From NCBI GenBank assembly GCA_051313645.2, contig JBNRSN020000508.1, positions 124,001 to 188,000 on the forward strand: 64,000 nt of DNA. Direction: 5' to 3'. The stretch's first letter is position 1. Every line of letters starts with the position of its first letter. The stretch comes from Centroscyllium fabricii. Taxonomy: Eukaryota. Positions 3,298-47,474 of this stretch are shown one piece after another. The notes beneath the pieces were generated by a model that did no database searches, was not told where the DNA came from, and saw only the letters and a program-made list of their open reading frames with translations. The translations under genes and the position numbers were made by a program.

Positions 3298-3935
3298 GTA
3301 ATGGGCACTGTCCCAGGGGAGCGGGTAATGGGAACTGTCCCAGGGGAGTGGGGAGCCAGGGGAGCGGTTAATGGGAACTGTCCCAGGGGAGCGGGTAATG
3401 GGCACTGTCCCAGGGGAGCGGGTAATGGGAACTGTCCCAGGGGAGTGGGGAGCCAGGGGAGCGGTTAATGGGAACTGTCCCAGGGGAGCGGGTAATGGGC
3501 ACTGTCCCAGGGGAGTGGGGAGCCAGGGGAGCGGTTAATGGGAACTGTCCCAGGGGAGCGGGTAATGGGGACTGTCCCAGGGGAGTGGGTAATGGGGACT
3601 GTCCCAGGGGAGCGGGTAATGGGGACTGTCCCAGGGGAGTGGGGACCCAGGGGAGTGGTTAATGGGAACTGTACCAGGGGGAGTGGGTAATGGGGACTGG
3701 GTAATGGGGACTGTCCCAAGGGAGTGGGTAATGGGGACTGTACCAGGGGACTGGGTAATGGGGACTGTCCCAGGGGAGTGGGTAATGGGGACTGTCCCAG
3801 GGAAGTGGGTAATGGGGACTGTACCAGGGGAGTGGGTAATGGGGACTGTCCCAGGGGAGTGGGTAATGGGGACTGTACCAGGGGAGTGGGGACCCAGGGG
3901 AGTGGGTAATGGGAACTGTCCCAGGGGAGCGGGGA
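3292..3935. repeat. 27-bp minisatellite (GAGCGGGTAATGGGCACTGTCCCAGGG and variants)
   Basis: Direct tandem repeats translating as ERVMGTVPG/EWVMGTVPG. The first unit overlaps the exon end. Confidence 0.9.
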
Positions 3936-4024
3936 ATGGGGTCTGGGGGAGCTGGAGTGGGGAGTGGTCCCACTGCATTCTGTATCTCCGAGCTCCGCTA
4001 ACCCAGGTATTGTTGATTTTACAG

Positions 4025-4108
4025 AAAGTCTTGCAGGAAGTTGAAAAGAACAGAGAGAAGGTGGATGAATGTGAGAAATTTGCCAAGCAATACATTGATG
4101 CCATCAAG
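4025..4108 (+). CDS. PLEC: Plectin internal exon, 28 codons
   Basis: Boundaries ttttacag|AAA...AAG|gtaaca. KVLQEVEKNREKVDECEKFAKQYIDAIK matches human ALLEEIERHGEKVEECQRFAKQYINAIK. Confidence 0.93.
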
Positions 4109-4785
4109 GTAACAAGACGGAAATAACATAAGGGTAATCAGTACAGGCCCTGATCTCTGACCACTAACACACTCACAAAGGAACTGTGTGTGTACTGTGA
4201 CAGTGTCACTCGTTTCTTCCAGGGTAAGACAGTTCCAAGTGCAAAACTCAGCAAGTCTTTTATTTTAAATGTGCGGGGAAAAGGGATAGGGAGTAGAGGT
4301 CTTTCTGGTTTTCCTCCGGTCTCGGGCCTCGCTCACACTCGGGCCTCGCCCACTCTCGGCGTAGTCCAATTCTTCTAAACTCCCCTTCGTCAAGTTCTCC
4401 CGTTATTTAGTCCAACGACTGGTTATCCACACCGTTAATGAAAGTAACGAAGAGTTCTTCTTACCATGCCACGGAGAGATTAGGTCTGCATTACCACTCT
4501 GCAACCACCGCCCTCTCTCTGCATCAAAGCCTCAGCAGCAGACAGCTTAACCTGGAGCTGCTTGCAATCCAGCTCCTTCTCTTTGCTGGGACAGTGATGG
4601 TGGTCTCCACTCTACCTTCTGCCTCTCTGGCTCCTCCTCTTCCTCTTGGGCCCAGGGCAGCAACCAATCCGCTTCTCTCCTCTCCAATAGGCACCTGGCT
4701 TGATTGGGGATTGACGGCAGGTGCGCTACCTCCAGCTCTACGTGGGAATGAATCTCCCCTCCCACAGCCGACCTCTCACCAGCTG

Positions 4786-4786
<1 letters not shown>

Positions 4787-4828
<42 letters not shown>
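4787..4828. repeat. Poly-G homopolymer (42 G)
   Basis: Read directly from the sequence. Confidence 0.9.
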
Positions 4829-4832
<4 letters not shown>

Positions 4833-5002
4833 CGGCTCTGCTGCCAGGCCACCACAGTACATTCAAATAGACAAATATACACAGACCTGGGTATATAAAC
4901 ACATACAGGCACACACTCTGATACAGGTACACACATATACAATCTGATACAGGTACACACATCTCACTGATACAGGCACACACATACACCCTGATACTGG
5001 CA

Positions 5003-5145
5003 CACTTCACTTTCACTTTCACTTTCAAATAGCTTTATTGGCATGAATGGTATCAACCGTTGTTGCCAAAGCATTACAAAAATGGTACATCAATAACAAT
5101 ACAAACAAAATAAGTATAACATTTAACTGGACTTAGGTTAACATA
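5003..5145 (-). mobile_element. 3' end of RTE-X-like LINE running into an assembly gap
   Basis: Contains GCTTTATTGGCATGAATGGTATCAACCGTTGTTGCCAAAGCA, shared with the copies at 7396, 9291 and 50340. The tail reads (CTTTCA)n on the + strand. Confidence 0.7.
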
Positions 5146-5345
5146 NNNNNNNNNNNNNNNNNNNNNNNNNNNNNNNNNNNNNNNNNNNNNNNNNNNNNNN
5201 NNNNNNNNNNNNNNNNNNNNNNNNNNNNNNNNNNNNNNNNNNNNNNNNNNNNNNNNNNNNNNNNNNNNNNNNNNNNNNNNNNNNNNNNNNNNNNNNNNNN
5301 NNNNNNNNNNNNNNNNNNNNNNNNNNNNNNNNNNNNNNNNNNNNN
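5146..5345. other. Assembly gap (200 N)
   Basis: A run of N. The round size suggests a placeholder of unknown true length. Confidence 0.98.
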
Positions 5346-7395
5346 CACACACACTGATACAGGTATGTACACACACTCTGATACAGATACACATACTGAT
5401 ACAGGCACACACACACTCTGATACAGGTGCATGCCCACACACACACACATCCTGCATGTAGGGTCTAGGGATTGGAGCGATAGATACACACACACACTCT
5501 GATACAGATACACACACACACTGATACAGATACACACACTGATACAGATACACACTGATACAGGCACACACACACACTCTGATACAGGTACACACACACA
5601 CACTCTGATACAGGTACACACACACACTGATACAGGTATACACACACTCTGATACAGGTACGCACACATACACTGATACAGGTACACACACACAATCTGA
5701 TACAGATACACACACAATCTGATACAGATACACACACACTCTGATCCAGGTACACACACTGTTACAGGTAAACACACGCTGATACAGGTACACACACAAA
5801 CTGATACAGGCACACACACACTGATACACCTACACACACACACACACACACACACTGATACACCTACACACACTCTCTCTGATGCAGGTACACACACACT
5901 GTGATACAGATACACACACATACTGATACAGGTATATACACACTCTGATACACACACATACTGATACAGGCACACATACTGATACGGCACACACACTCTG
6001 ATACAGGCACACACACACTCTGATACAGACGCACACACACACATCCTGCAAGTAGGGCCTAGGGATTGGAGTGATAGATACACACACACACACTCTGATA
6101 CAGGTACACACACACTGATAGCGATACACACACTCACTGATACAGATACACACACACTGATACAGATACACACTGATACAGGCACACACACTCTGATACA
6201 GGTACACACACACACACACTCGGATACAGGTGTACACACACTGATACAGGTACAGGCACACACACTGATACAGGTACACGCACACACAATCTGATATAGG
6301 TACACACATCACACTGATACAGGCACACACATACGCTCTGATACAGGCACACACACTGAGACAGGTGCACACACACTCTGATACAGGTACACACACTCTG
6401 ATACAGATACACACACACTCTGATACAGATACACACACACTCTGATACAGATACACACACACTGATACAGATACACACACACTGATACAGATATACACTG
6501 ATACAGGCACACATACACTCTGATACAGGTACACACACACTCTGATACACCTACACACTCATACTGATACAGGCGCACACACACACTCTGATACAGGTAC
6601 AGGCACACACACATACTCTGATACAGGTACACACATACACACTCTGATACAGGTACACACACACACTGATACAGGTACAGGCACACCCACACTGATACAG
6701 GTACACATCACACTGATACAGGCACACATACGCTCTGATACAGGCACACATACGCTCTGATACAGGCACACACTCTGATACAGGCACACACACACTCTGA
6801 TACAGGTGCACACGCACACACAGATATACCTACACACACACTGATACAGGCACACACAGTGTGGTACAGGTACACACACACACACACACATACACTGATA
6901 CAGGTACTCAATCTGATACAGGTACACACATCACACACTGATACAGGTACACACACACTATAATACAGGCACAAACACACACTGATACACCTACACACAC
7001 TGAGACAGGTACACACACACTCTCTGATACAGGTACACACACACCGTGATACTGATACACACACATACTGATACAGGTACACACACACTGATATAGATAC
7101 ACACACTGCTGCAGGCACACACACTGATACAGGCACACACGCACTCTGATCCAGCCTCACACACTGATACAGGCGCGTACACACACACAGACATCCTGCA
7201 TGTAGGGCCGAGGGATTGGAGCGACAAATACACACACACACTCTGATACAAATACACACACACTCTGATATGGATACACACTGATACAGGCACACACACA
7301 CTCTGATACTCCTACACACACTGATACAAGCACACACACTATCTCATACAGGCACACACACTGATACAAGCACACACACACTGATACAGGCACAC

Positions 7396-7877
7396 AATTC
7401 ACAATTCAAAGGGCTTTATTGGCATGAATGGTATCAACCGTTGTTGCCAAAGCAGTGCAACATACATAAGAATATTGCATTAGTAGAACATTTTAACATA
7501 CATAAGAATAATACATTAGTAGACGTACTACATAGAATAATACATTAGTAGACTTATTGACAACCGTACATTAGTTACGCACACATGTACATTTATACCC
7601 GCATATAGAGCTTGTATGCTCATCCTAGCTTCAATGTCAATGGTCACTGGTTGTCCCTCTGCTTATGGCAAGCTGTGACGTAGTTTGCCGCAAGTTTTAT
7701 ACATTCCCTCTGTTCCCCTAGTAGGTATGGGAGTTTCTGGTGGTCGGTCAAATTATTGAATTCAGGGCATGCTGTTGCAAATTTTGGAAGAAATTTCCCC
7801 TTATTCCCTGATAATTTTCGCAAGTTGTGAGTAAGTGCAGCTCTGTCTCCACCACTCCCTGACTGCAGTGGGAGCAC
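7396..7877 (-). mobile_element. 5'-truncated RTE-X-like LINE
   Basis: The minus strand encodes CSHCSQGVVETELHLLTTCENYQGIRGNF and HQKLPYLLGEQRECIKLAANYVTACHKQRDNQ, nearly identical to 1740-1965(+). Confidence 0.8.
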
Positions 7878-8421
7878 ACACACACTCTGATACAGGCACA
7901 CACACACTCTGATACAGGTGCACACACACACTGATACAGGTACACACACACTCTGATACAGGTGCACACACACACTGATACAGGTACACACACACTCTGA
8001 TACAGGTGCACACACACACTGATACAGGTACACACACACTCTGATACAGGTACACACACACACTCTGATACAGGTACACACACACTGTTACAGGTACACA
8101 CATTCTGATACAGGTACACACACACTGATACAGGTACACACCAACTGATACAGGCACACACACACTAATACATGTACAGGCACACAAAATGTGAAACAGG
8201 TACACACACTCTGATACAGGTACACACACACACTCTGATACAGATACACACACTGATACAGGCACACACACTGATACAGGCGTGCACACACACACAGACA
8301 TCCTGCATGTAGGACCTAGGGATTGGAGCGACATATACACACACACACTCTGATACAGAGAGACACACACACTGATACAGATACGAACTGATACAGGCAC
8401 ACACACACTCTGATACACCTA

Positions 8422-8724
8422 CACGGTGGCATAGTGGTTAGCACTGTTGCCTCACAGCACTAGAAACCCGGGTTCAAATCCAGCCTCGGGTACTATCTGT
8501 GTGGAGTTTGCACATTCTCCCCGTGTCTGCGTGGGTTTCCTCCGGGTGCTCCGGTTTCCTCCCACAATCCAAAGATGTGCGGGTTAGGTTGATTGGCCAT
8601 GATAAATTGACCCTCGGTGTTGGGGGCATTAAATATGTGGGGTTACGGGGATAGGGTGGGATATGTGTCGGTGCAGGCTCGATGGGCCGAAATGGCCCCT
8701 ATCTGCACTGTAGCGATTCTATGA
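8422..8724 (+). mobile_element. tRNA-derived V-SINE (HE1-like)
   Basis: Pol III A box GGTGGCATAGTGG and B box GGTTCAAATCC. The V-core is TGTGTGGAGTTTGCACATTCTCCCCGTGTCTGCGTGGGTTTCCTCCGGGTGCTCCGGTTTCCTCCCACA, followed by a CR1-like 3' tail. Confidence 0.88.
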
Positions 8725-9290
8725 TACACACACTGATACAGGCACACACACACTCTGATACAGGTACACACACACACACTGATACAGGCACACACACACT
8801 CTGATACATGCACACACACACACTGATACAGGCACACACACACTCTGATACATGTACACATACACACTGATACAAGTACACACACACTCTGATACAGGTA
8901 CACACACACACACTGATACAGGCACACACACACACACACTCTGATACAGGCACACACACACTCTGATACAGGCACACACACACTCTGATACAGGCACACA
9001 CACACTCTGATACAGGCACACACACACTCTGATACAGGTACATACACACATACTAATACAGGTATACACATTCTGATACTGGTACACACATTCTGATACT
9101 GGTACACGCACACACTGATACAGACACGCACACACATACAGGTACACACACACACACTCTAATACACCTACACACATACTGATACAGGCACACACACACA
9201 CTCTGATACAGGCACACGCACATTCTGATACAGGTACACACACACACTCTGATACAGTTACACACGCACACACAGATATACCTACACACA

Positions 9291-9685
9291 CAATTCACAA
9301 TTCACAATTCAAAAAGCTTTATTGGCATGAATGGTATCAACCGTTGTTGCCAAAGCAGTGCAACATACATAAGAATATTACATTAGTAGAGCATTTTAAC
9401 ATACATAAGAATAATACATTAGTAGACGTACTACATAGAATAATACATTAGTAGACTTATTGACAACCGTACATTAGTTACGTACACATGTACGTTTATA
9501 CCCGCATATAGAGCTTGTATGCTCATCCTAGCTTCAATGTCAATGGTCACTGGTTGTCCCTCTGCTTATGGCAAGCTGTGACGTAGTTTGCCGCTAGTTT
9601 TATACATTCCCTCTGTTCCCCTAGTAGGTATGGGAGTTTCTGGTGGTCGGTCAAATTTTTGAATTCAGGGCATGCTGTTGCAAAC
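9291..9685 (-). mobile_element. 5'-truncated RTE-X-like LINE
   Basis: Near-identical to 7396-7780 but with a shorter 5' end. Encodes FATACPEFKNLTDHQKLPYLLGEQRECIKLAANYVTACHKQRDNQ. Confidence 0.8.
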
Positions 9686-10616
9686 ACACTGATACAGTCA
9701 CATACACACACACACTGATAAAGGCACACACAATGTGGTGCAGGTACACACACACATACACTGATACAGGTACACACATCACACTGATAAAGGTACAGGC
9801 ACACACACTGATACAGGCACACACTCTGATACAGGCACACACACACTCTGATACAGGCGCATGCATACACACATCCTGCATGTAGGGCCTAGAGATTGGA
9901 GTGATAGATACACACACACACACACACACACACACTGATACAGATACACACAGATACAGGCACACACACACTGATACAGGCACACACACACTCTGATACA
10001 GGTACACACACACACAGATACACCTACATACACACACACACTGATGCAGGCACACACACTGATACACCTACACACACACACACTCTGATACAGGTACACA
10101 CACATACACTGATACAGGTACACACACACAATCTGATACAGGTACACACACACACACTCTGATACAGGTACACACACACACTCTGATACAGGTACACACA
10201 CAATCTGATACAGGTGCACACACACAGATACACCTACACACAGATACAGGCACACACTGATACAGGCACACACACTGATACAGGTACAGGCACACACTCT
10301 GATACAGGTACAGGCACACACTCTGATACAGGTACAGGCACACACACTGATACAGGTACAGGCACACACTCTGATACAGGTACAGGCACACACTCTGATA
10401 CAGGTACACACATCACACTCTGATACAGGCACACACATATGCCCTGATACAGGCACACACACACTGAGACAGGTACACACACACCCTGATCCAGGTACAC
10501 ACACACATCCTGCATGTAGAGCCTAGGGATTGGAGCGATAGATCGGAGATGCTGGTTTTGTGACTGGGTGTACAGAGGATGGTTTTAATCCTGGTGCAAT
10601 GTGTTTTGTGTCTCAG

Positions 10617-10721
10617 GACTATGAATTGCAGCTGGTGACCTACAAAGCTCAGATTGAACCTGTCGCATCGCCAGTGAAGAAACAGAAAGTGTTGTCAGCC
10701 TCAGACACCGTCATCCAGGAG
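10617..10721 (+). CDS. PLEC: Plectin internal exon, 35 codons
   Basis: Boundaries tgtgtctcag|GAC...GAG|gtagga. DYELQLVTYKAQIEPVASPVKKQKVLSASDTVIQE matches human DYELQLVTYKAQLEPVASPAKKPKVQSGSESVIQE. Confidence 0.95.
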
Positions 10722-10954
10722 GTAGGAGTCCGTGCCACCTTTCCTATGCCCATAACCAGTCCACCATCTGCCCAGTGCTCCTGCCCATGAGTAGCAGGCA
10801 GTGAGCTGATGCAGGACCAGGAAGCTCTGTAGTGCCCAGGCCTCTGGTTGGTGACTGAGCAGCCAGTTTGTCTCAGTCAGGAGTGGACCAGTTACTGGCT
10901 CGGATTCTCTGGAAGCCAAGTGTGGTGGTGGCTGGACAGATGCAGGGAGCTGGG

Positions 10955-11615
10955 TGTGCCCCACTCGCACCTGGGCGTCCCTCACCCGCACCTGGGCGCC
11001 CCCCGCCCGCACCTGAGCTTACCTGCTCGCACCTGGGGGTCCCCTGCTCGCACCTGAGCATCCCCCTCTCACACCTGGGCGTCCCTCACCCGCACCTGGG
11101 CGCCCCCTGCCCGCACCTGGGGGTCCCCCGCTCGCACCTGAGCATCCCCCTCTCACACCTGGGCGTCCCTCACCCGCACCTGGGCGTCCCCTGCCCGCGC
11201 CTGTGCTTACCTGCCCGCACCTGGGGGTCCCCCGCTCGCACCTGAGCATCCCCCTCTCACACCTGGGCGTCCCTCACCCGCACCTGGGCGCCCCCCGCCC
11301 GCACCTGGGCGCCCCCCGCCCGCACCTGGGCGCCCCCCGCCCGCACCTGGGCTTACCTGCTCGCACCTGGGCATCCCGTGCTCACACCTGGGCATTACCC
11401 TCTCACACCTGGGCGTCCCTCACCCGCACCTAGGCTTCCCTCGCCCTCACCTGGGCTTCCCTCGCCCGCATCTGGGCATACCTGCTCTGCCCCCTCCCGC
11501 GCGATTGTTCCCCCTCCCCGGCGATTGTGCCCCCTCCCCCAGCGATCTTGCCCCCTCCCCCGCGATCGTGCCCCCTCCCCCCGCGATCGTGCCCCCTCCG
11601 CGATCGTGCCCCCTC
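10955..11615. repeat. GC-rich ~21-bp minisatellite (CGCACCTGGGCGTCCCTCACC) followed by (CGCGATCGTGCCCCCTCCCC)n
   Basis: Tandem CACCTGGG-anchored units, CpG-rich. Confidence 0.85.
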
Positions 11616-11994
11616 TGGGAGCTGTAGTAAACAACGGTTGATGTAATCGATGACCGACCGTCACTATAGCAGGCCTCTCGCCAAAGATCTCGGACCAACG
11701 GCCCAATCACTTCACCCCCCTGCCTGGTGTATGTCTGTGTGTGGGACTGCAGTCACGTGTAGGCCCAGACTGGGGGCAGGGGGTCTCCCTCCCTGCAGGA
11801 CATCAGTGACCAGGTATAACAACAGAAAACGATGGAGAAACTCAGCAGGCCAGTCAGCATCGGTGGAGAGAGTATTTTGCTATCGTACCAGTGACCAGGT
11901 GATTTTTACAACAATCTGGCCACAAATCAGTAGATTTACTGAATTGTATTTCACAACTTGCCCCTACGGGCAGATATACAGATCCTTGGACAGA

Positions 11995-14128
11995 GTCAGT
12001 GACCGGTGGTCTAAGTGAGTCAGTGACCGGTGGTCTAAGTGAGTCAGTGACCGGTGATCTGAGTAAGTCTGTGACTGGTGGTCTGAGTAAGTATGTGACC
12101 GGTGGTCTGAGGGTCGGTGACTGGTGGTCTGAGGGTCGGTGACTGGTGGTCTGAGGGTCGGTGACTGGTGGTCTGAGTAAGTATGTGACCGGTGGTCTGA
12201 GGGTCAGTGACCAGTGGTCTGAGGGTCAGTGACCAGTGGTCTGAGGGTCAGTGACCGGTGGTCTGAGAGTCAGTGACCGAAGGTCTGAGGGTCACTGACT
12301 GGTGGTCTGAGAGTCTGTTACCGGTGGTCTGAGGGTCAGTGATCGGTGGTCTGAGGGTCAGTGACCGGTGGTCTGAGGGTCAGTGACCAGTGGTTTGAGG
12401 ACCGTACACCGGAGGTCTGAGTGATTTCGTGACCAGTGGTCTGAGTGAGTCAGTGACCGGTGGTCTGAGTGTCAGTGACCGGTGGTCTGAGGATCATTGA
12501 CCGGTGGTCTGAGGATCATTGACCGGTGGTCTGAGCATCCATGGCCAGTGGTCTGAGGATCGTTGACCGGTGGTCTGAGCATCATGACCAGTGGTCTGAG
12601 GATTGTTGACTGGTGCTCTGAGCGTCAGTGATCGGTGGTCTGAGGGTCGATGACCGGTGGTCTGAGGGTCAGTGACCGGTGGTCTGAGGGTCAGTGACCG
12701 GTGGTCTGAGGGTCAGTGACCGCTGGTCTGAGGGTCAGCGACCGCTGGTCTGAGGATCGATGATCGATGGTCTGAGCATCCGTGACCAGTGGCCTGACGG
12801 TGGTCTGAGTGAGTCAGTGACCGGTGGTTTGAGAGTGAGTCAGTGACCAGTAGTCTGAGGGTCAGTGACTGGTAGTCTGAGGGTCAGTGACCTGTGGTCT
12901 GAGAGTCAGTGACCGGTGGTCTGAGTGAGTCAGTGACCGGTGGTCTGAGGGTCAGTGACCAGTGGTCTGAGTGAGTCAGTGACCGGTGGTCTGAGGGTCA
13001 GTGACCGGTGGTCTGAGGGTCAGTGACCGGTGGCCTGAGGGTCAGTGACCGGTGGCCTGAGGGTCAGTGACCGGTGGCCTGAGGGTCAGTGACCGGTGGC
13101 CTGAGGGTCAGTGACCGGTGGCCTGAGGGTCAGTGACCGGTGGTCTGAGTGAGTCAGTGACCGGTGGTCTGAGGGTCAGTGACCGGTGGTCTGAGGGTCA
13201 GTGACTGGTGGTGTGAGTGAGTCAGTGACCGGTGGTCTGAGGGTCAGTGACCGGTGGTCTGAGGGTCAGTGACCGGTGGTCTGAGGGTCAGTGACCGGTG
13301 GTCTGAGGGTCAGTGACCGGTGGTCTGAGGGTCAGTGACCGGTGGTCTGAGGGTCAGTGACCGGTGCTCTGAGGGTCAGTGACCGGTGCTCTGAGTGAGT
13401 CAGTGACAGGTGGTCTGAGGGTCAGTGACAGGTGGTCTGAGTGAGTCAGTGACCGGTGGTCTGAGGGTCAGTGACCAGTGGTCTGAGTGAGTCAGTGAAC
13501 GGTGGTCTGAGTGAGTCCGTGACAGTGGTCTGAGGGTCAGTGACCGGTGGTCTGAGGGTCAGTTACCAGTGGTCTGAGGGTCAGTGACTGGTGGTCTGAG
13601 GGTCAGTGACTGGTGGTCTGAGGGTCAGTGACCAGTGGTCTGAGTGAGTCAGTGATGGTGGTCTGAGTGAGTCAGTGACCGGTGGTCTGAGTGAGTCAGT
13701 GACGGTGGGCTGAGGGTCAGTGACCGGTGGTCCGAGTGAGTCAGTGACCGGTGGTCTGAGGGTCAGTGACCGGTGGTCTGAGGGTCAGTGACCGGTGGTC
13801 TGAGGGTCAGTGACTGGTGGTCTGAGTGAGTCAGTGACCGGTGGTCTGAGTGAGTCAGTGACGGTGGTCTGAGTGAGTCAGTGACCGGTGGTCTGAGGGT
13901 CAGTGACCGGTGGTCTGAGGGTCAGTGACCGGTGGTCTGAGGGTCCGTGACCGGTGGTCTGAGGGTCAGTGACCGGTGGTCTGAGGGTCAGTAACCGGTG
14001 GTCTGAGGGTCAGTGACCAGTGGTCTGACTGAGTCAGTGACCGGTGGTCTGAGGGTCAGTGACCGGTGGTCTGAGTGAGTCAGTGACCGGTGGTCTGAGG
14101 GTCAGTGACCGGTGGTCTGGGGGTCAGT
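11995..14128. repeat. 22-bp minisatellite (GAGGGTCAGTGACCGGTGGTCT) with 24-bp GAGTGAGTCAG variants
   Basis: Period of 22 seen directly (13021 to 13043). The array ends about 30 bp before the next exon. Confidence 0.95.
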
Positions 14129-14159
14129 GGGACTGATGAGGTCTGTGCTTCTTTTGCAG

Positions 14160-14258
14160 TATGTGGACCTGCGAACACGTTACATTGAGCTGATGACTCT
14201 GTCCAGCCAGTACATCAAGTTCATCACAGTCAATATCCGCAGGCTGGAGAACGAGGAG
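14160..14258 (+). CDS. PLEC: Plectin exon preceding the rod (equivalent to mammalian exon 30), 33 codons
   Basis: Boundaries cttttgcag|TAT...GAG|gtgaga. YVDLRTRYIELMTLSSQYIKFITVNIRRLENEE matches human YVDLRTHYSELTTLTSQYIKFISETLRRMEEEE. Missed by the ORF track. Confidence 0.95.
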
Positions 14259-34295: not shown

Positions 34296-37200
34296 ATGGA
34301 AGCAGGACAGAAGAAAGAAATTGTCCATACGACTCACATCCTTCAACAAACCTTCATCAGTGAGAAAGAGCTGCTGCTAAAGAAGGAAAAGATGATTGAA
34401 GATGAGAAGGAGAAGTTGGAACAGTTATATGTAGATGAACTGAAGAAATCCATATCTCTGAAGGACGAACAAGAGAAGCAAATGAAGAATCTGGAGGATG
34501 AAAAACGCAAACTTCAAGCCAGTATGGATGAGGCACTAAGAAAGCAGAGGGAGGCTGAGAATCAGGTCCATGATAAGCAGAGAGAACTTCAGGAAATGGA
34601 GGTGAAGAGACAGGAGAAAGAGAAGCAGCTAGCCGATGAAAATCAGGCTCTGAGAGAGATGTTGGAGCAACTGAAAGCGCAGAAGATCGAAGCAATGGCC
34701 AAAGAGAAGGTCATTCAATCAGTGACACTCACTCCAGTCGGAGCCGTTTCAAATGGCAGAGACGTGGTGGATTCCACCCCTGAAGGTGAAGATGCCAAGT
34801 TTTCCTTTGATGGCCTCCGCCAACCAGTCACCGCAGGTCGGTTACAGCAAGCTGGCATCCTGAGTAAGAAACAGCTGGACAAGCTGAAGAAAGGTTCCAT
34901 CACAGTGAAGGAACTCTCACAAAAAGAAAACCTGAAGAATTATCTGCAGGGCAAGAGTTGCGTTGCTGGTCTGATCATTGAACCCACAAAGGAGAAAATG
35001 AGCCTCTACCAGGCAATGAAGCAGAGATTACTGAAACCCAGCACAGCCACCGTCTTGCTGGAGGCCCAAGCAGCATCCGGCTTCATCATCGACCCCATTA
35101 ACAACAAGAAACTGTCGGTCAACCAGGCCATAAAGGAAGGAGTAATTGGACCAGAGCTTCAGGACAAACTGCTTTCTGCAGAGAGAGCTGTCACAGGTTA
35201 CAGGGATCCCTATACTGGCAATCAGATCTCCCTATTCCAAGCAATGAATAAGGATCTCATCATTCCAAGCCATGCAACTCGCCTGATGCAGGCACAGATT
35301 GCTACTGGTGGCATCATTGACCCCATCCACAGCCATCGCCTGCCATTGGACCAGGCCTGCAAGCAAGGTATATTTGATGAGGACATGAATAAGACACTTG
35401 CTAGTGAAAGTGATGATACCAAAGGATTCGTTGACCCCAACACTCAGGAGAATGTTACGTACATGCAGCTGATGAACAGATGCAAGAAGGATCCAGAAAC
35501 CGGCCTATGTCTCTTGCCATTAACGGATGAAGCAGTGACACAAATGGAAGGTTACACCACGGAGCAGACTCGCGACATCTTCAGCACGGCCACAGTGTCC
35601 GTCCCATCAGGAAAATTCTCTGGGAAGACTGTCACCATCTGGGAACTGATCAACTCGGACTATTTCACTGCAGATCAACGCCGGGACCTAATCTGGCAAT
35701 ACAGGTCAGGAAAGGTCACCATTGAAAACATTATTAAATTCATCATCACCATCATTGATAAAATTGAGACCAAAAAACAGCTTCTCTTTGATGGTCTGAG
35801 GGACAAGGTTCCTGCCAGTGAGCTGTTGGAATCTAAGATCATCGACAAGAAGACGTTTGATGGGCTGCAGAAGGGTAAGGCATCACCAGAAGATGTTGGC
35901 AAGTTGGAGGCGGTCAGGAAATACCTCCAGGGATCAGATAGCATCGCTGGAGTGTTTGTTGAACCTACAAAGGAGAAGATGAGCTTTTATGAGGCGATGA
36001 AGAAGAATTTGTTGAGTCCAACCACAGCAGAGTTCTTACTGGAAGCTCAGGCAGCCTCGGGATTCATTGTTGACCCCGTGCGGAATCGGACGCTCACTGT
36101 TGATGAAGCAGTTAAGGAAGGTCTCATTGGACCAGAGCTTTGTGAGAAGCTTCTGTCTGCAGAAAGAGCGGTAACTGGATACAAGGATCCCTACACTGGC
36201 CGTAAGATCTCCTTATTTGAGGCAATCAACAAGAATCTTCTTCACAAAGACCATGGTATCCGTCTCCTGGAGGCACAGTTGTCATCTGGAGGCATCATTG
36301 ACCCTGTGACCAGCCATCGCTTGCCCGTTGACGTGGCCTACAAGCGAGGTATGCTTGATGAGGAGATGAGCCAGATGTTGTCCACTCCCAGCGATGACAC
36401 AAAAGGATTCTATGATCCAAACACAGAGGAGAACCTCACCTACCAACAGCTGAAGGAGAGATGTAGAAAGGATGATAAGTCGGGGCTCTTCCTGCTGCCC
36501 TTGAGCGAGAAAGCAATCATGTCAAAACCTGCTTATGATGAAGAGCAGACGAAAGATACCTTTAGGAAGACCACAGTCTCTGTTCCTGCCGGCAAATTCA
36601 CTGGTAAGACCGTCACCATCTGGGAGTTGATTAACTCAGAGTATTTCACCGATGAACAGAGGAGAGAGCTGATCCGACAATATAGGTCAGGAAAGGTCAC
36701 AGTGGAGAAGATCATCAAAATTGTCATCACGGTGATTGAGGAAACAGAAACAAAGAAGAAACCACAGCTTCTCTTTGATGGTTTGAGGGACAAGGTTCCT
36801 GCCAGTGAGCTGTTGGAATCTCAGATCATCGACAAGAAGACGTTTGATGGGCTGCAGAAGGGTAAGGCATCACCAGAAGAGGTTGGCAAGTTGGAGGCGG
36901 TGAAGAAATACCTGCAGGGATCAGACAGCATCGCTGGAGTGTTTGTCGAACCTACAAAGGAGAAGATGAGCTTTTATGAAGCGATGAAGAAGAATCTGTT
37001 GAGATCAAGAATAGCAGAGGCCTTACTGGAAGCTCAGGCAGCGACAGGGTTCATCATTGACCCAGTGCGGAATCGGACGCTCACTGTCGATGAAGCAGTT
37101 AAGGAAGGTTTCATTGGACCAGAGCTCCATGAGAAGCTTCTGTCTGCTGAGAAAGCGGTAACTGGATACACTGATCCCTATACTGGCCGTAAGATCTCCT

Positions 37201-40200
37201 TATTTGAAGCAATGAGAAAGGACCTTATACCCAAGCTCCATGGTGTCCATCTCCTGGAGGCACAGTTGGCAGCTGGAGGCATCATTGACCCCGTGACCAG
37301 CCATCGCCTGCCTATTGAAGCAGCCTACAAGCGAGGCATGTTTGATGAGGAGATGAGCAAAAAGTTGTCCACTCCCAGCGATGACATTAAAGGTTTCACT
37401 GAACCAAACACGGACGAGAGTGTCACCTACCAGCAGCTGAAGGAGAGATGTAGAACTGACCCCGAGACATCCCTTTGCCTGTTACCATTGACAGAAGAGG
37501 CAATAAAACGTGTGGACGTCCACCCTGAGGAAGTGACTAAAGACATTTTCCAAAAGTCCATGGTGTCCGTCCCATCCGGCCAATTCTCTGGAAAGACTGT
37601 CACCATCTGGGAACTAATCAACTCGGACTATTTCACCGAAGATCAACGCCGGGATCTAATCTGGCAATACAGGTCAGGAAATGTCACCATTGAAAACATT
37701 ATTAAATTTGTCATCACAATCATTGATGAAACTGAAACCAAAAAACAGCTTCTCTTTGATGGTCTGAGGGACAAGGTTCCAGCCAGTGAGCTGTTGGAAT
37801 CTAAGATCATCGACAAGAAGACGTTTGATGGGCTGCAGAAGGGTAAGGCATCACCAGAAGATGTTGGCAAGTTGGAGGCGGTGAGGAAATACCTGCAGGG
37901 ATCAGACAGCATCGCTGGAGTGTTTGTCGAACCTACAAAGGAGAAGATGAGCTTTTATGAGGCGATGAAGAAGAATTTGTTGAGTCCAACCACAGCAGAG
38001 TCCTTACTGGAAGCACAGGTGGCCTCTGGATTCATTGTTGACCCTGTGCGGAATCGGACGCTCACTGTCGATGAAGCAGTTAAGGAAGGTCTCATTGGAC
38101 CAGAGCTCCATGAGAAGCTTCTGTCTGCAGAAAGAGCAGTAACTGGGTACAAGGATCCCTACACTGGCCGTAAGATCTCCTTATTTGAGGCAATCAACAA
38201 GAATCTTCTTCACAAAGACCATGGTATCCGCCTCCTGGAGGCACAGTTGTCATCTGGAGGCATCATTGACCCTGTGACCAGCCATCGCTTGCCCGTTGAC
38301 GTGGCCTACAAGCGAGGTATGCTTGATGAGGAGATGAGCCAGATGTTGTCCGCTCCCAGCGATGACACAAAAGGATTCTATGATCCAAACACAGAGGAGA
38401 AGCTCACCTACCAACAGCTGAAGGAGAGATGTGGAAAGGATGATAAGTCGGGACTCTTCCTGCTGCCCTTGAGCGAGAAAGCAATCATGTCGAAACCTGC
38501 TTATGATGAAGAGCAGACGAAAGATACCTTTAGGAAGACCACAGTCTCTGTTCCTGCCGGCACATTCACTGGTAAGACCGTCACCATCTGGGAGTTGATT
38601 AACTCAGAGTATTTCACTGATGAACAGAGGAGGGAGCTGATCCGACAATATAGATCAGGAAAGGTCACAGTGGAGAAGATCATCAAAATTGTCATCACGG
38701 TGATTGAGGAAACAGAAACAAAGAAGAAACCACAGCTTCTCTTTGATGGTTTGAGGGACAAGGTTCTTGCCAGTGAGCTGTTGGAATCTCAGATCATCGA
38801 CAAGAAGACGTTTGATGGGCTGCAGAAGGGTAAGGCATCACCAGAAGAGGTTGGCAAGTTGCAGGTGGTGAAGAAATACCTGCAGGGATCAGACAGCATC
38901 GCTGGAGTGTTTGTCGAACCTACAAAGGAGAAGATGAGCTTTTATGAAGCGATGAAGAAGAATCTGTTGAGACCAAGAATAGCAGAGGCCTTACTGGAAG
39001 CTCAGGCAGCGACAGGGTTCATCATTGACCCCGTGCGGAATCGGACGCTCACTGTCGATGAAGCAGTTAAGGAAGGTTTCATTGGACCAGAGCTCCATGA
39101 GAAGCTTCTGTCTGCAGAAAGAGCGGTAACTGGGTACAAGGATCCCTACACTGGCCGTAGGATCTCCTTATTTGAAGCAATGAGAAAGGACCTTATACCC
39201 AAGCTCCATGGTGTCCATCTCCTGGAGGCACAGTTGGCAGCTGGAGGCATCATTGACCCCGTGACCAGCCATCGCCTGCCTATTGAAGCAGCCTACAAGC
39301 GAGGCATGTTTGATGAGGAGATGAGCAAAAAGTTGTCCACTCCCAGCGATGACATTAAAGGTTTCACTGAACCAAACACGGACGAGAGTGTCACCTACCA
39401 GCAGCTGAAGGAGAGATGTAGAACTGACCCCGAGACATCCCTTTGCCTGTTACCATTGACAGAAGAGGCAATAAAACGTGTGGACGTCCACCCTGAGGAG
39501 GTGACTAAAGACATTTTCCAAAAGTCCATGGTGTCCGTCCCATCCGGTCAATTCTCTGGAAAGACTGTCACCATCTGGGAACTGATCAACTCGGACTGTT
39601 TCACCGAAGATCAACGCCGGGATCTAATCTGGCAATACAGGTCAGGAAATGTCACCATTGAAAACATTATTAAATTCATCATCACAATCATTGATGAAAC
39701 TGAAACCAAAAAACAGCTTCTCTTTGATGGTTTGAGGGACAAGGTTCCAGCCAGTGAGCTGTTGGAATCTAAGATCATCGACAAGAAGACGTTTGATGGG
39801 CTGCAGAAGGGTAAGGCATCACCAGAAGAGGTTAGCAAGTTGGAGGCGGTGAAGAAATACCTGCAGGGATCAGATAGCATCGCTGGAGTGTTTGTCGAAC
39901 CTACAAAGGAGAAGATGAGCTTTTATGAGGCGATGAAGAAGAATTTGTTGAGTCCAACCATAGCAGAGTCCTTACTGGAAGCACAGGTGGCCTCGGGATT
40001 CATTGTTGACCCTGTGCGGGATCGGACGCTCACGGTCGATGAAGCAGTTAAGGAAGGTCTCATTGGACCAGAGCTCCATGAGAAGCTTTTGTCTGCAGAA
40101 AGAGCAGTAACTGGGTACAAGGATCCCTACACTGGCCGTAGGATCTCCTTATTTGAGGCAATCAACAAGAATCTTCTTCACAAAGACCATGGTATCCGCC

Positions 40201-43200
40201 TCCTGGAGGCACAGTTGTCATCTGGAGGCATCATTGACCCTGTGACCAGCCATCGCTTGCCTGTTGACGTGGCCTACAAGCGAGGTATGCTTGATGAGGA
40301 GATGAGCCAGATGTTGTCCATTCCCAGCGATGATACAAAAGGATTCTATGATCCAAATACAGAGGAGAACCTCACCTACCAACAGCTGAAGGGGAGATGT
40401 AGAAAGGATGATAAGTCGGGGCTCTTCCTGCTGTCCTTGAGCGAGAAAGCAATCATGTCGAAACCTGCGTATGATGAAGAGCAGACGAAAGATACCTTTA
40501 GGAAGACCACAGTCTCTGTTCCTGCCGGCACATTCACTGGTAAGACCGTCACCATCTGGGAGTTGATTAACTCAGAGTATTTCACCGATGTACAGAGGAG
40601 GGAGCTGATCCGACAATATAGATCAGGAAAGGTCACAGTGGAGAAGATCATCAAAATTGTCATCACGGTGATTGAGGAAACAGAAACAAAGAAGAAACCA
40701 CAGCTTCTCTTTGATGGTCTGAGGGACAAGGTTCTTGCCAGTGAGCTGTTGGAATCTCAGATCATCGACAAGAAGACGTTTGATGGGCTGCAGAAGGGTA
40801 AGGCATCACCAGAAGAGGTTGGCAAGTTGCAGGCGGTTAAGAAATACCTGCAGGGATCAGACAGCATCGCTGGAGTGTTTGTCGAACCTACAAAGGAGAA
40901 GATGAGCTTTTATGAAGCGATGAAGAAGAATCTGTTGAGACCAAGAATAGCAGAGGCCTTACTGGAAGCTCAGGCAGCGACAGGGTTCATCATTGACCCA
41001 GTGCAGAATCGGACGCTCACTGTCGATGAAGCAGTTAAGGAAGGTTTCATTGGACCAGAGCTCCATGAGAAGCTTCTGTCTGCTGAGAAAGCGGTAACTG
41101 GATACACTGATCCCTACACTGGCCGTAAGATCTCCTTATTTGAAGCAATGAGAAAGGACCTTATACCCAAGCTCCATGGTGTCCATCTCCTGGAGGCACA
41201 GTTGGCAGCTGGAGGCATCATTGACCCCGTGACCAGCCATCGCCTGCCTATTGAAGCAGCCTACAAGCGAGGCATGTTTGATGAGGAGATGAGCAAAAGG
41301 TTGTCCACTCCCAGCGATGACATTAAAGGTTTCACTGAACCAAACACGGACGAGAGTGTCACCTACCAGCAGCTGAAGGAGAGATGTAGAACTGACCCCG
41401 AGACATCCCTTTGCCTGTTACCATTGACAGAAGAGGCAATAAAACGTGTGGACGTCCACCCTGAGGAGGTGACTAAAGACGTTTTCCAAAAGTCCATGGT
41501 GTCCGTCCCATCCGGTCAATTCTCTGGAAAGACTGTCACCATCTGGGAACTGATCAACTCGGACTGTTTCACCGAAGATCAACGCCGGGATCTAATCTGG
41601 CAATACAGGTCAGGAAATGTCACCATTGAAAACATTATTAAATTCATCATCACAATCATTGATGAAACTGAAACCAAAAAACAGCTTCTCTTTGATGGTC
41701 TGAGGGACAAGGTTCCAGCCAGTGAGCTGTTGGAATCTAAGATCATCGACAAGAAGACGTTTGATGGGCTGCAGAAGGGTAAGGCATCACCAGAAGAGGT
41801 TAGCAAGTTGGAGGCGGTGAAGAAATACCTACAGGGATCAGACAGCATCGCTGGAGTGTTTGTCGAACCTACAAAGGAGAAGATGAGCTTTTATGAAGCG
41901 ATGAAGAAGAATTTGTTGAGTCCAACCATAGCAGAGGCCTTACTGGAAGCACAGGTGGCCTCGGGATTCATTGTTGACCCTGTGCGGAATCGGACGCTCA
42001 CTGTCGATGAAGCAGTTAAGGAAGGTCTCATTGGACCAGAGCTCCATGAGAAGCTTCTGTCTGCAGAAAGAGCAGTAACTGGGTACAAGGATCCCTACAC
42101 TGGCCGTAAGATCTCCTTATTTGAGGCAATCAACAAGAATCTTCTTCACAAAGACCATGGTATCTGCCTCCTGGAGGCACAGTTGTCATCTGGAGGCATC
42201 ATTGACCCTGTGACCAGCCATCGCTTGCCCGTTGACGTGGCCTACAAGCGAGGTATGCTTGATGAGGAGATGAGCCAGATGTTGTCCATTCCCAGTGATG
42301 ACACAAAAGGATTCTATGATCCAAACACAGAGGAGAACCTCACCTACCAACAGCTGAAGGAGAGATGTAGAAAGGATGATAAGTCGGGGCTCTTCCTGCT
42401 GCCCTTGAGCGAGAAAGCAATCATGTCGAAACCTGCGTATGATGAAGAGCAGACGAAAGATACCTTTAGGAAGACCACAGTCTCTGTTCCTGCCGGCACG
42501 TTCACTGGTAAGACCGTCACCATCTGGGAGTTGATTAACTCAGAGTATTTCACCGATGAACAGAGGAGGGAGCTGATCCGACAATATAGATCAGGAAAGG
42601 TCACAGTGGAGAAGATCATCAAAATTGTCATCACGGTGATTGAGGAAGCAGAAACAAAGAAGAAACCACAGCTTCTCTTTGATGGTTTGAGGGACAAGGT
42701 TCCTGCCAGTGAGCTGTTGGAATCTAAGATCATCGACAAGAAGACGTTTGATGGGCTGCAGAAGGGTAAGGCATCACCAGAAGAGGTTGGCAAGTTGCAG
42801 GCGGTGAAGAAATACCTGCAGGGATCAGACAGCATCGCTGGAGTGTTTGTCGAACCTACAAAGGAGAAGATGAGCTTTTATGAAGCGATGAAGAAGAATC
42901 TGTTGAGACTAAGAATAGCAGAGGCCTTACTGGAAGCTCAGGCAGCGACAGGGTTCATCATTGACCCCGTGCGGAATCGGACGCTCACTGTCGATGAAGC
43001 AGTTAAGGAAGGTCTCATTGGACCAGAGCTCCATGAGAAGCTTCTTGCTGCAGAGAAAGCGGTAACTGGATACATTGATCCCTACACTGGCCGTAAGATC
43101 TCCTTATTTGAAGCAATGAGAAAGGACCTTATACCCAAGCTCCATGGTGTCCATCTCCTGGAGGCACAGTTGGCAGCTGGAGGCATTATTGACCCCGTGA

Positions 43201-46200
43201 CCAGCCATCGCCTGCCTATTGAAGCAGCCTACAAGCGAGGCATGTTTGATGAGGAGATGAGCAAAAGGTTGTCCACTCCCAGCGATGACATTAAAGGTTT
43301 CACTGAACCAAACACGGACGAGAGTGTCACCTACCAGCAGCTGAAGGAGAGATGTAGAACTGACCCCGAGACATCCCTTTGCCTGTTACCATTGACAGAA
43401 GAGGCAATACAACATGTGGACGTCCACCCTGAGGAAGTGACTAAAGACGTTTTCCAAAAGTCAATGGTGTCCGTCCCATCCGGTAAATTCTCTGGAAAGA
43501 CTGTCACCATCTGGGAACTGATCAACTCGGACTATTTCACCGAAGAACAGAGAAGGGACCTAATTCGTCAATATAGGTCAGGAAAAGTGACTGTGGAGAA
43601 AATAATTACAATTGTTGTTACAATTATTGAGGAAAGTGAGTTGAAGAAAAAGCCACAAGTTACGTTTAATGGTTTGAGGGACAAGGTTCCAGCCAGTGAG
43701 CTTCTGGAATCTAAGATCATCAACAAGAAGACGTTTGATGGGCTGCAGAAGGGTAAGGCATCACCAGAAGAGGTTGGCAAGTTGGAGGCGGTGAGGAAAT
43801 ACCTGCAGGGATCAGATAGCATCGCTGGAGTGTTTGTCGAACCTACAAAGGAGAAGATGAGCTTTTATGAAGCGATGAAGAAGAGTTTGTTGAGTCCAAC
43901 CACTGCAGAGGCCTTACTGGAAGCTCAGGCAGCGACAGGATTCATTGTTGACCCTGTGCGGAATCGGACGCTCACTGTCGATGAAGCAGTTAAGGAAGGT
44001 CTCATTGGACCAGAGCTCCATGAGAAGCTTCTGTCTGCTGAGAAAGCGGTAACTGGATACACTGATCCCTACACTGGCCATAAGATCTCCTTATACCAAG
44101 CAATCAAGAAGGATCTCATTTCTAAAGATCATGGTGTCCGTCTCCTGGAGGCACAGATTGCCACGGGAGGCATCATTGACCCCGTGACCAGTCATCGCCT
44201 GCCGGTAGGTGTGGCCTACAAGCGAGGTATGTTTGATGAGCAGATGAACACGAGTCTCTCAGATGCTGATGATGACACTAAAGGGTTTGTTGATCCCAAC
44301 TCTCATGAGGACCTCACCTACCAACAGCTGAAGGAGAGATGTGTGGCAGATCCTGAAACTGGACTGTGCCTCCTGCCCATGAATGACAGAGAGAAACCAA
44401 GGGTGGTTGAAAGTATCATCCACAGTGAGACCGAAACGAGGGAGGTATTTGAGAACACTACGGTGGACATTCCATCTGGTTCTATGGGTGGGACGTCCAT
44501 GTCTGTTTGGGAGATCCTGAACTCTGAGTTCATTTCAGAGAAAGAAAGACGCAAGCTAACAAAAGAATATCAGACAGGGAAAATCACCCGCGAGCGTTTA
44601 GTTGTCATAATTATTGAAATTATTCAGCAGGTGGAAATTCGCAGGGGATATCAAATGATTACGTTCAATAGCTACCGGGGCAAGATCACTGCAGATCAAC
44701 TGTATGCCTCACGAATTATTGATCTGGAGACTCTCAACATGTTGAAGGAGAAGAAACTGACGGTTAGAGAAGTGCGTGAAATGGAGTCTGTGAGAAAGTA
44801 CCTGTTTGGGACGGGGGCTATCAGCGGCATTTATAAATGCGCTGTGAAGGAGGTGTTAAATCTGTATGAAGCGATGAAGAAAGGTTGGGTGAAACCTGAG
44901 ATAGCTCATGCTCTGCTGGAGGCCCAGGCTGCCACTGGCTTCATCCTGGAACCAGTGAAGAACAAGCGGCTGACAGTGGACGAGGCTGTGAGGGAGGGTG
45001 TGGTGGGTCCTGAGCTTCACGACAAGCTGCTGTCAGCAGAACGAGCAGTCACCGGTTACCGAGACCCTTACACCGGGAAAGCCATCTCGCTTTTCCAGGC
45101 CATGAAGAAAGGCCTCATTGTGAGGGACTATGCCCTGAGGCTTCTCGATGCCCAGCTGGTCACAGGCGGGATCATCGACCCAGAGTACAACCACCACCTG
45201 CCTCTGGAGGCCGCCTACCAACGCGGCTACCTTGACCTCGAGACTTACGGCCTCCTCATCGATCCCACCCAGGGGACAGGAGGATTCCATGACCCCAACA
45301 CTGAGGAGGCATTGAGCTATGGCCAGCTGATGGTGAGGTGCAAAGCTGATGAAAATACAGGTCATCACCTCTTGGCTCTGACAGACAAGAAACGGTTGAT
45401 ATTCAAGGGCCTGCGCAAGCAGATCACAATAGAACAACTTGTTGCCTCAAATATCATCGAACGTTCCTTAGCTACACAGCTGCAGGAAGGCGAGACCACC
45501 ATTGAAGAAGTTAGCAACAGTATCAAGAAATATTTGGAAGGCACAAGTTGCATTTCGGGGGTGTTTGTTGAGGCCGCTAAGGAGAGACTGTCCATTTACC
45601 AAGCCATGAAGAAGGGGATGATCAGACCTGGGACAGCGTTCGAGCTGTTGGAAGCCCAAGCAGCGACTGGTTATGTGATCGACCCAATCAAAAACCTGAA
45701 GTTAACCGTCACTGAAGCAGTTAAGATGGGAGTGGTGGGCTCGGAGTTTAAAGACAAGCTTCTGTCAGCTGAGAGAGCGGTCACTGGTTACAAAGACCCT
45801 TACTCAGGTGCTATCATGTCCCTGTTTCAAGCTATGCAAAAAGGTCTGATTCTTAAAGACCATGGTATCCGGTTACTGGAGTCACAGATTGCTACGGGAG
45901 GCATCATTGACCCTGAGCACAGTCACCGCCTGCCTGTTGAAATGGCGTACAAGCGCGGTCTGTTTGATGAGGAGATGAACAAGATATTGTCAGATCCAGG
46001 AGATGACACCAAGGGCTTCTTTGACCCAAACACTGAGGAAAACCTGACCTACCTGCAGCTGAAGGAGCGATGTGTCGTGGACTCGGACACTGGACTCTGC
46101 CTACTGCCACTGAAAGAGAAGAAACGCGAGAGGAAGACTTCATCTAAGTCATCTGTCCGCAAACGCCGAGTGGTCATTGTTGATCCTGAAACCAGCAAAG

Positions 46201-47474: not shown

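What the first reader, a model, noticed from the sequence alone, without database searches (positions are those of the whole stretch)
34296..47474. Plectin with 13 plakin repeat domains: an epiplakin-like tail built into the plectin terminal exon
Seen: one 13,179-bp open terminal exon with the order PRD1, then (PRD-A, PRD-B) x4, a tenth PRD near 43656, and three domains resembling mammalian PRD4 (~44655), PRD5 (~45395) and PRD6/C (~46560). The module period is exactly 1968 bp (656 aa) and no copy has a stop or frameshift. Established: mammalian plectin has 6 PRDs. Its neighbour and paralogue epiplakin (EPPK1) consists of 13 or more PRD-linker units with near-identical tandem copies in one exon. 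Inference: this lineage has roughly doubled the plectin intermediate-filament-facing tail by an epiplakin-style expansion while keeping the plakin domain, rod and PRD5-6 IF-binding linker. That gives a plectin/epiplakin-like hybrid cytolinker. It may shed light on how EPPK1 arose, or compensate for an absent EPPK1. I cannot tell whether this is already described in chondrichthyans.
Basis: partly seen in the sequence, partly recalled or inferred. Interest (0 to 1): 0.88.

Follow-up and report, generated by a model that had tools for sequence, protein, structure and literature searches.

The report
Shark plectin with expanded repeat tail
Plectin, the protein that ties intermediate filaments to cell junctions, has 13 filament-facing repeat domains here instead of the textbook six, because one of its own two-domain blocks is repeated four times; database proteins of other sharks and rays carry the same expansion (9 to 15 domains), which likely adds grip on filaments and is not a fusion with epiplakin.

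Summary
Window 34296-47474 is one open terminal exon of plectin (PLEC) with 13 plakin repeat domains (PRDs). A 1,968-bp two-PRD module is repeated 4.04 times (35595-43546). Copies are 96.8-98.2% alike, with dN/dS 0.17-0.45. The tandem junction is present in 4 of 4 public runs laid, two of them probable RNA from relatives, so the repeat is real; the exact copy number is less sure.

The extra PRDs are duplicates of plectin's own PRD2-3 region, not epiplakin domains (AU test p=1.6e-16). EPPK1 lies elsewhere in the genome, so it is neither a hybrid nor a stand-in.

It is also not special to this lineage. All 12 of 12 shark and ray species with full-length database models have 9-15 PRDs, the chimaera has 7, and tetrapods have 6. 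Chimeric junction linkers and clustering of copies by species point to unequal crossing-over with concerted evolution. The amplified PRDs keep the basic filament-binding groove, so added avidity is the likely effect, untested.

Nine paper searches found no description. Verdict: a new variant of a known protein, already latent in RefSeq.

The parts
2941..14258 (+). Last four plakin-domain/pre-rod exons of PLEC seen in the window (about 2941-3324, 3992-4108, 10614-10742, 14109-14258; edges approximate)
   Evidence: tblastn of shark plectins P0020, P0015 and P0018, 60-93% identity
21543..24923 (+). Rod exon (equivalent of plectin exon 31), 1,127 codons, AG acceptor and GT donor, phase 0
   Evidence: 87-90% identity to Stegostoma and Heterodontus plectin; splice sites read from the sequence
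34296..47474 (+). Terminal coding exon, 13,179 bp, 4,392 aa plus stop, 13 PRDs
34944..35522 (+). PRD1 core, orthologous to PRD1 of other vertebrate plectins
35595..43546 (+). Tandem array of 4.04 x 1,968-bp modules (PRD-a + linker a + PRD-b + linker b), PRDs 2-9; crossover point inside a linker
   Evidence: go-back joint in reads
43803..44381 (+). PRD10 core, positional equivalent of tetrapod PRD3 (followed by the PRD3-4 type linker)
44802..45380 (+). PRD11 core, orthologous to tetrapod PRD4
   Evidence: support 100
45534..46112 (+). PRD12 core, orthologous to tetrapod PRD5
46113..46571 (+). PRD5-6 type linker, the main intermediate-filament-binding region, with its basic cluster at 46158
   Evidence: near-identical to the human linker; role from PMC8468861 and PMC11774597 passages
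46572..47147 (+). PRD13 core, C-type, orthologous to tetrapod PRD6
   Evidence: 6 of 6 groove sites basic
47148..47474 (+). Ser-rich tail with GSR repeats and a shark-type C-terminal extension, then stop
47986..47991 (+). First AATAAA after the stop, candidate polyadenylation signal
   Evidence: not tested

Best explanation
This is the plectin gene of a cartilaginous fish, likely a shark, whose last exon holds four tandem copies of plectin's own two-PRD block, likely multiplied by unequal crossing-over and predicted to give the protein extra low-affinity grip on intermediate filaments. Shown: 13 PRDs, a 4 x 1,968-bp array, a plectin (not epiplakin) origin of the copies, purifying selection between copies, 9-15 PRDs in other sharks and rays, and an intact terminal PRD5-linker-PRD6 anchor. 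Inferred history: a seven-PRD plan (1-a-b-x-4-5-6, as in the chimaera) was the starting point. Misaligned crossovers between the similar linkers duplicated the a-b block or single units, and continued exchange keeps copies more alike within a species than between distant species. Inferred function (about even odds): the terminal anchor still makes the main filament contact, and the extra PRD-linker units add avidity or let one plectin dimer reach more filaments.
For: Junction linkers L3, L5 and L7 carry the first half of the last b-linker (L9) and the second half of linker 1, the footprint of a crossover inside a linker; such junction linkers group with linker 1 at support 98. The 65 chondrichthyan PRDs between PRD1 and PRD4 form one clade (support 96), with a- and b-types shared among sharks and copies clustered by species. 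Window a-units average 96.9% to each other and reach at best 90.1% to another species. dN/dS is 0.17-0.45 in 6 of 6 copy pairs. The go-back-1,968 joint stands in 4 of 4 runs. All 9 of 9 amplified PRDs (2-10) have K or R at the sites matching envoplakin R1895, K1901, R1914 and R1952; PMC4782060 shows these matter for vimentin binding (passages). The AlphaFold model of one unit (pLDDT 85) superposes on desmoplakin PRD-B at 1.1-1.2 A over 195 residues. Several mouse EPPK1 PRDs bind keratins in overlay assays (PMC9563781 passage).
Against: No binding, expression or protein-size data exist for this protein. The two RNA runs are only guessed to be RNA and come from relatives. Amplified PRD cores have net charge -4 to -10, and salt did not affect desmoplakin PRD-vimentin binding in a study cited by PMC6171917 (passage), so groove residues do not prove binding. 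Depth in run X1 is only 0.63-0.78 of what four copies predict. Clustering by species is not universal: stingray b-units are closer across Hemitrygon and Hypanus (98%) than within (89%), and skate units likewise match across genera. No jawless-fish plectin was obtained, so whether six or seven PRDs is ancestral is open.
Confidence: 0.8

Rival explanations
1. The array is real but its copy number is functionally neutral. Once two similar units stood side by side, crossing-over keeps the number drifting, and selection only keeps each unit in frame and folded.
For: Counts vary from 9 to 15 with irregular order in skates (baababb, babbabbabb). Human and mouse EPPK1 vary from 9 to 17 PRDs, and a short variant still moves onto keratin (PMC9563781 passages). 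The main filament-binding site is untouched.
Against: All 12 of 12 elasmobranch species keep at least 9 PRDs and none is back at 6 or 7 in its longest model; four myliobatiform species all have 10. Groove residues are kept in 9 of 9 copies.
Confidence: 0.4
2. The assembly miscounts the modules: the animal has an array, but of two, three or five modules, or the four shown mix two haplotypes.
For: No contig spans the array. Depth ratios give 0.63-0.78 (X1) and 1.1-1.2 (X3) of the four-copy expectation. The window's contig is only 271 kb.
Against: All four copies differ from one another at 36-63 bases and carry private variants. X3 fits four to five copies. Relatives have comparable or larger counts.
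Confidence: 0.2
3. A plectin-epiplakin hybrid: EPPK1 repeats were copied or fused into the plectin exon, perhaps replacing a lost EPPK1.
For: The architecture resembles EPPK1 (tandem PRD-linker units in one exon), and PLEC and EPPK1 are neighbours in many vertebrates (PMC8782857).
Against: An AU test rejects one clade of array PRDs plus shark and ray EPPK1 PRDs (log-likelihood lower by 148.8, p=1.6e-16). A module unit matches the genome's own EPPK1 at only 52-65% but the other array units at 77-98% and PRD10 at 69%. EPPK1 is present as a 2,142-aa ORF. Spacings differ: 327/329 against 410 aa.
Confidence: 0.03

Closest known systems
Plectin (PLEC) of tetrapods
   Same: Plakin exons, rod exon, single terminal exon, PRD1 and PRD4-6 orthologues, PRD5-6 filament-binding linker, GSR tail.
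   Different: 13 PRDs instead of 6; the tail from a shared anchor is 4,377 aa against 2,057 aa in human; the amplified PRDs have a basic residue at the R1914-equivalent groove site, where human PRD2, 3 and 5 have S, T and L.
Plectin models of other cartilaginous fishes (RefSeq: Heterodontus, Mustelus, Carcharodon, Stegostoma, Hemitrygon, Hypanus, two Mobula, Narcine, Amblyraja, Leucoraja, Rhinoraja, Callorhinchus)
   Same: The same a- and b-type units and linkers at the same place in the tail; 7 PRDs in the chimaera and 9-15 in 12 sharks and rays.
   Different: The window has the highest count among the five sharks compared (13 against 9-10), in strict abababab order.
Epiplakin (EPPK1)
   Same: Near-identical tandem PRD-linker units within one exon; copy-number variation is known there (PMC9563781 passage). 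It works like EPPK1 in how it evolves.
   Different: EPPK1 has only PRDs and linkers, whereas this protein keeps the plakin domain, rod and C-type PRD. The repeats are not EPPK1-derived, and EPPK1 exists separately in the genome.
Teleost desmoplakin-b-like models with 14-25 PRDs
   Same: PRDs upstream of an unchanged terminal B-linker-C unit are multiplied in tandem.
   Different: A different gene and lineage; the unit is a single PRD at 243-aa spacing without the long linker.

Membership tests
Plectin (PLEC) | N-terminal actin-binding domain (two CH domains) | tested here: inconclusive
   Exons matching Stegostoma plectin from residue 200 on lie upstream in contig C1054; residues 1-199 were not matched before the contig's start.
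Plectin (PLEC) | Plakin domain exons upstream on the same strand | tested here: met
   23 colinear exon matches covering 1,109 of the first 1,350 residues of P0020.
Plectin (PLEC) | Single large rod exon spliced in frame to one terminal exon | tested here: met
   21543-24923 joins 34296 in phase 0 with the same junction as database plectins. Splicing itself was not observed directly.
Plectin (PLEC) | Terminal PRD5-linker-PRD6(C)-GSR tail | tested here: met
Plectin (PLEC) | Six PRDs (the textbook count, from mammals) | tested here: not met
   13 PRDs. Six is the count in bony vertebrates only: 13 of 13 chondrichthyan species have 7-15, so this does not exclude membership.
Plectin (PLEC) | Binds intermediate filaments | not testable with these tools
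   Only sequence determinants were checked.
Epiplakin (EPPK1) | Made only of PRDs and linkers, whole coding sequence in one exon | tested here: not met
   The exon follows rod and plakin exons.
Epiplakin (EPPK1) | PRDs that group with EPPK1 PRDs | tested here: not met
   Trees; AU p=1.6e-16.
Epiplakin (EPPK1) | Near-identical tandem PRD-linker units | tested here: met
   Four modules at 96.8-98.2% nucleotide identity.
Epiplakin (EPPK1) | Copy-number variation within a species | tested here: inconclusive
   Two samples give different depth ratios, and RefSeq isoforms lacking one module exist in Carcharodon and Amblyraja; contig depth is not a copy number.
Plakin repeat domain, B-type fold | Fold of 4.5 plakin repeats with a basic groove | tested here: met
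   Model against desmoplakin PRD-B: Z 29, rmsd 1.1 A, 195 residues; 4 of 6 groove sites basic in each amplified PRD.

The most novel reading that the evidence does not exclude
Sharks and rays carry a length-variable plectin. The a-b module number differs between individuals, or whole modules are skipped from within the exon, so the filament-binding avidity of the main cytolinker is tunable, and the array may give plectin the calcium-switched keratin binding so far known only from epiplakin. With teleost desmoplakin-b and EPPK1, this would be a third independent case of plakins amplifying the PRDs upstream of their last units.
Probability: 0.25. Interest if true: 0.7.

Novelty: new variant of a known kind. 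Interest (0 to 1): 0.45.

Why it matters
Reviews describe plectin as having six PRDs (PMC8468861 and PMC11774597 passages), and one calls the stoichiometry of filament binding enigmatic. Cartilaginous fishes offer a natural series of 7, 9, 10, 12, 13, 14 and 15 PRDs with the terminal binding site unchanged. That makes it possible to test what the upstream PRDs add. It also shows that repeat turnover of the EPPK1 kind can run inside an essential gene such as PLEC. Surprise is moderate: the long models already sit in RefSeq, and the mechanism is ordinary unequal crossing-over.

Tried and rejected
EPPK1 hybrid and EPPK1 loss: rejected.

Lineage-specific oddity: rejected. My first count of 7 for Carcharodon came from isoform X7; its four other listed isoforms have 9.

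Bony-fish models with 10-15 PRDs (Prochilodus, Xyrauchen, Oncorhynchus) and an owl model were set aside. They carry the PRD5-6 linker motif after five or so PRDs and run on with EPPK1-like spacing, so they look like PLEC-EPPK1 read-through models. Fragmentary models of Rhincodon, Chiloscyllium and Cetorhinus were left out of the count.

Expression in this species: no RNA holder listed as such; this is no evidence either way.

A single-sequence fold of the 656-aa module was poor (pLDDT 53) and was not used. The folded linker (model residues 202-281) had no clear solved match (best Z 4.7; no Pfam hit), which does not show a new fold.

A search for longer or further chondrichthyan plectins added no species (6 hits among 85 candidates). 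No lamprey or hagfish plectin was obtained.

A GAS2 search found 13 matches, none on C1054 or C724, so MACF1CTL was not placed. The linker tree could not tie EPPK1 linkers to particular plectin linkers (92 columns).

Earlier findings of this scan: nothing relevant.

Full report
1. Observation. The + strand holds a 4,401-codon open frame at 34269-47471. A CAG acceptor precedes ATG at 34296, and 34296-47474 encodes 4,392 aa. A profile built from 7 of the window's PRDs finds 13 full PRDs at spacings 327, 329, 327, 329, 327, 329, 327, 329, 329, 333, 244 and 345 aa. The strongest self-match is at lag 1,968 bp, and the array runs 35595-43546, 4.04 units. The six copy pairs differ at 36-63 bases (96.8-98.2% identity), all substitutions.

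2. Gene context. The rod exon is 21543-24923 with AG and GT ends. It joins the terminal exon in phase 0 and gives the junction found in database shark plectins. Further exons matching Stegostoma plectin residues 200-1350 lie colinearly upstream in contig C1054; residues 1-199 were not matched before the contig begins. The PRD5-6 linker is nearly identical to the human one, and the GSR tail is present. The closest database protein is Heterodontus francisci plectin, 96% over residues 3930-4340, and the genome is 7.2 Gb. I infer a shark; the species was not sought.

3. Is the repeat real? I laid four public runs, all assembled contigs, on PRD1 plus the first module, 34296-37580. Runs X1 and X3 match the unique part with 0 and 1 differences over 1,359 bases, so they are the same species or very close; X1 may be the source of the assembly, and both belong to one study. 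Runs X5 and X11 are two other organisms about 95% alike, from two other studies, guessed to be RNA. All 4 of 4 show a joint from 37577 back to 35610, exactly 1,968 bp. In X5 and X11 the contig covering the exon start runs about 7,590 and 7,350 bases further upstream, close to the roughly 7,430 coding bases expected in a spliced message, whereas the X1 and X3 contigs stop 114 bases upstream. I did not see those upstream letters, so splicing and transcription of the array are inferred. Contig depth over the module is 1.1-1.2 times (X3) and 0.63-0.78 times (X1) what four copies as assembled would give (five contigs each). The tool warns that such depth is not a copy number. It fits an array of roughly three to five modules and is a weak hint of variation between individuals.

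4. Distribution. Counting PRDs in database plectins, longest model per species: Callorhinchus 7; Carcharodon and Mustelus 9; Stegostoma, Heterodontus, Hemitrygon, Hypanus, Mobula hypostoma and M. birostris 10; Amblyraja and Narcine 12; Leucoraja 14; Rhinoraja 15. So 12 of 12 elasmobranch species with full-length models have 9-15, and the window's 13 lies within that range. Three fragmentary species were left out. Among the 79 lower-ranked plectin records (P0043-P0121, many of them isoforms, nearly all mammals and birds), 77 have 6; the exceptions are a naked mole-rat model with 7 and a sturgeon model with six plus a partial one. Antechinus has models with 8 and with 6. Three teleost models have six plectin PRDs followed by an EPPK1-like run. 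No amphibian, gar, coelacanth or jawless-fish plectin was in my set.

5. Origin of the extra domains. I built a tree of 176 of 258 extracted PRDs; left out were Prochilodus, Oncorhynchus, Antechinus, Dromiciops EPPK1, the Xyrauchen read-through part and later repeats of four EPPK1s. Window PRD1, 11, 12 and 13 group with tetrapod PRD1, 4, 5 and 6. All 65 chondrichthyan PRDs in between form one clade (support 96) without any EPPK1 PRD. Within it, sharks share an a-type and a b-type, and copies of each type cluster by species. A 48-row maximum-likelihood tree agrees, and holding four array PRDs together with seven shark and ray EPPK1 PRDs costs 148.8 log-likelihood units (AU p=1.6e-16; the rows were chosen after I had seen). 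The genome's own EPPK1 is a 2,142-aa ORF with 6 PRDs at C724:1,065,035-1,071,460, minus strand, with the 328/323/410 spacing of Narcine EPPK1. Its three 410-aa units are 99-100% identical, so it may be collapsed in the assembly. PMC8782857 also reports EPPK1 in skate.

6. Mechanism of expansion (inferred). The linker alignment shows three parent types: linker 1, linker a and linker b. The chimaera has them once each, in the order 1-a-b-x. In the window, the linkers at module junctions (L3, L5, L7) begin like the last b-linker (L9) and end like linker 1. That is what a crossover between linker b and linker 1 of misaligned chromatids leaves, and the array boundary falls there. Rays show the same chimeric linker and also single-unit duplications (babab, baababb, babbabbabb). 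Within-species identity exceeds the best between-species identity for all five sharks, Narcine and a-units of Mobula and Rhinoraja, but not for the two stingrays or between the skate genera. Homogenisation is therefore ongoing but slower than recent speciation. That unequal crossing-over yields such patterns is general knowledge, recalled.

7. Function (inferred). dN/dS between copies is 0.17-0.45 and between a and b 0.32, so the copies are under purifying selection. One unit folds with pLDDT 85 into a PRD matching desmoplakin PRD-B at 1.1 A, followed by a compact linker domain without a clear solved match. I mapped the six envoplakin groove residues of PMC4782060 through the ungapped alignment. 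As a check, window PRD13, human PRD6 and desmoplakin PRD-C score 6 of 6 basic, as that paper says for C-type domains. All 9 amplified PRDs are basic at four sites, including both K1901 and R1914, whose mutation weakened binding most; human PRD2, 3 and 5 lack the R1914 charge. The most likely working picture is that the terminal PRD-linker-PRD anchor makes the tight contact and the extra units add weaker contacts in series. Against this: nothing was assayed, the PRD cores are net acidic, the role of groove electrostatics is questioned for desmoplakin (PMC6171917 passage), and EPPK1 tolerates 9-17 PRDs (PMC9563781 passage). Neutral drift in copy number therefore remains a serious rival.

8. Literature. 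Nine searches with combinations of plectin, epiplakin, plakin repeat, shark, cartilaginous, elasmobranch, chondrichthyan, lamprey and copy number found no paper describing a PRD count other than six for plectin. PMC8782857: read parts 1-3 of 4 (abstract to methods and the start of the references) and searched its one supplement by keyword; it treats skate and elephant shark loci but not plectin repeat number. PMC4782060, PMC9563781, PMC8468861, PMC6171917 and PMC11774597: passages only. The library lacks most subscription papers, so an earlier mention cannot be excluded.

9. Verdict. The feature is real and correctly described. It is plectin with an elasmobranch-wide, variable expansion of its own PRD2-3 region, evolving like epiplakin but not derived from it. 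New variant of a known kind; interest 0.45.

Noticed in passing
Database proteins P0002, P0004, P0005, P0009, P0021, P0042 and others: Teleost desmoplakin-b-like models (Xiphophorus, Oryzias, Sebastes, Anableps and others; often named epiplakin-like) carry 14-25 PRDs at 243-aa spacing. In the five checked, the extra domains are mostly A-like and sit before an unchanged B-linker-C end. This is a convergent expansion; one paper search listed no description.
   Followed up: partly
RefSeq models P0033 (Carcharodon X7) and P0275 (Amblyraja X2): Each lacks one two-PRD module (658 and 656 aa) relative to the longer isoform of the same species. This could be a read-mapping artefact, a shorter allele, or true skipping inside the exon.
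   Followed up: partly
L001:1536-7961 (-), G000:C724: EPPK1 of this genome: 2,142 aa, 6 PRDs, three 410-aa units 99-100% identical. It is shorter than Narcine EPPK1 (13 PRDs) and possibly collapsed.
   Followed up: partly
L002:4356-5279 (-) and L003:4210-4956 (+), G000:C724: Two near-identical single-PRD reading frames resembling plectin PRD5 or desmoplakin PRD-B, far from EPPK1 on the same contig. The second breaks off within the domain next to LINE-like sequence. Their gene is unidentified.
   Followed up: no
window 18247-21320, 24935-25622, 32688-34249: Long minisatellites (30 bp x 103; 16-17 bp x about 46; 26 bp x 60) lie close against the rod exon and the terminal exon's acceptor. Many more fill the introns and the downstream region.
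   Followed up: no
window about 27700-31900 and 48900-50400: LINE-like reverse transcriptase and endonuclease fragments in the last intron and downstream (recognised from the translations by recall, not by a family search).
   Followed up: no
window 36504-36770 (linker a; model residues 202-281): The inter-PRD linker is predicted as a compact folded domain (pLDDT 72-91) with no Pfam hit and no clear solved match. The same linker type separates EPPK1 PRDs.
   Followed up: partly
Database proteins P0032 and P0286 (Antechinus): A duplicated PRD4-PRD5 block gives 8 PRDs in some models and 6 in others; the two other marsupials counted have 6. Likely an assembly or annotation issue.
   Followed up: partly
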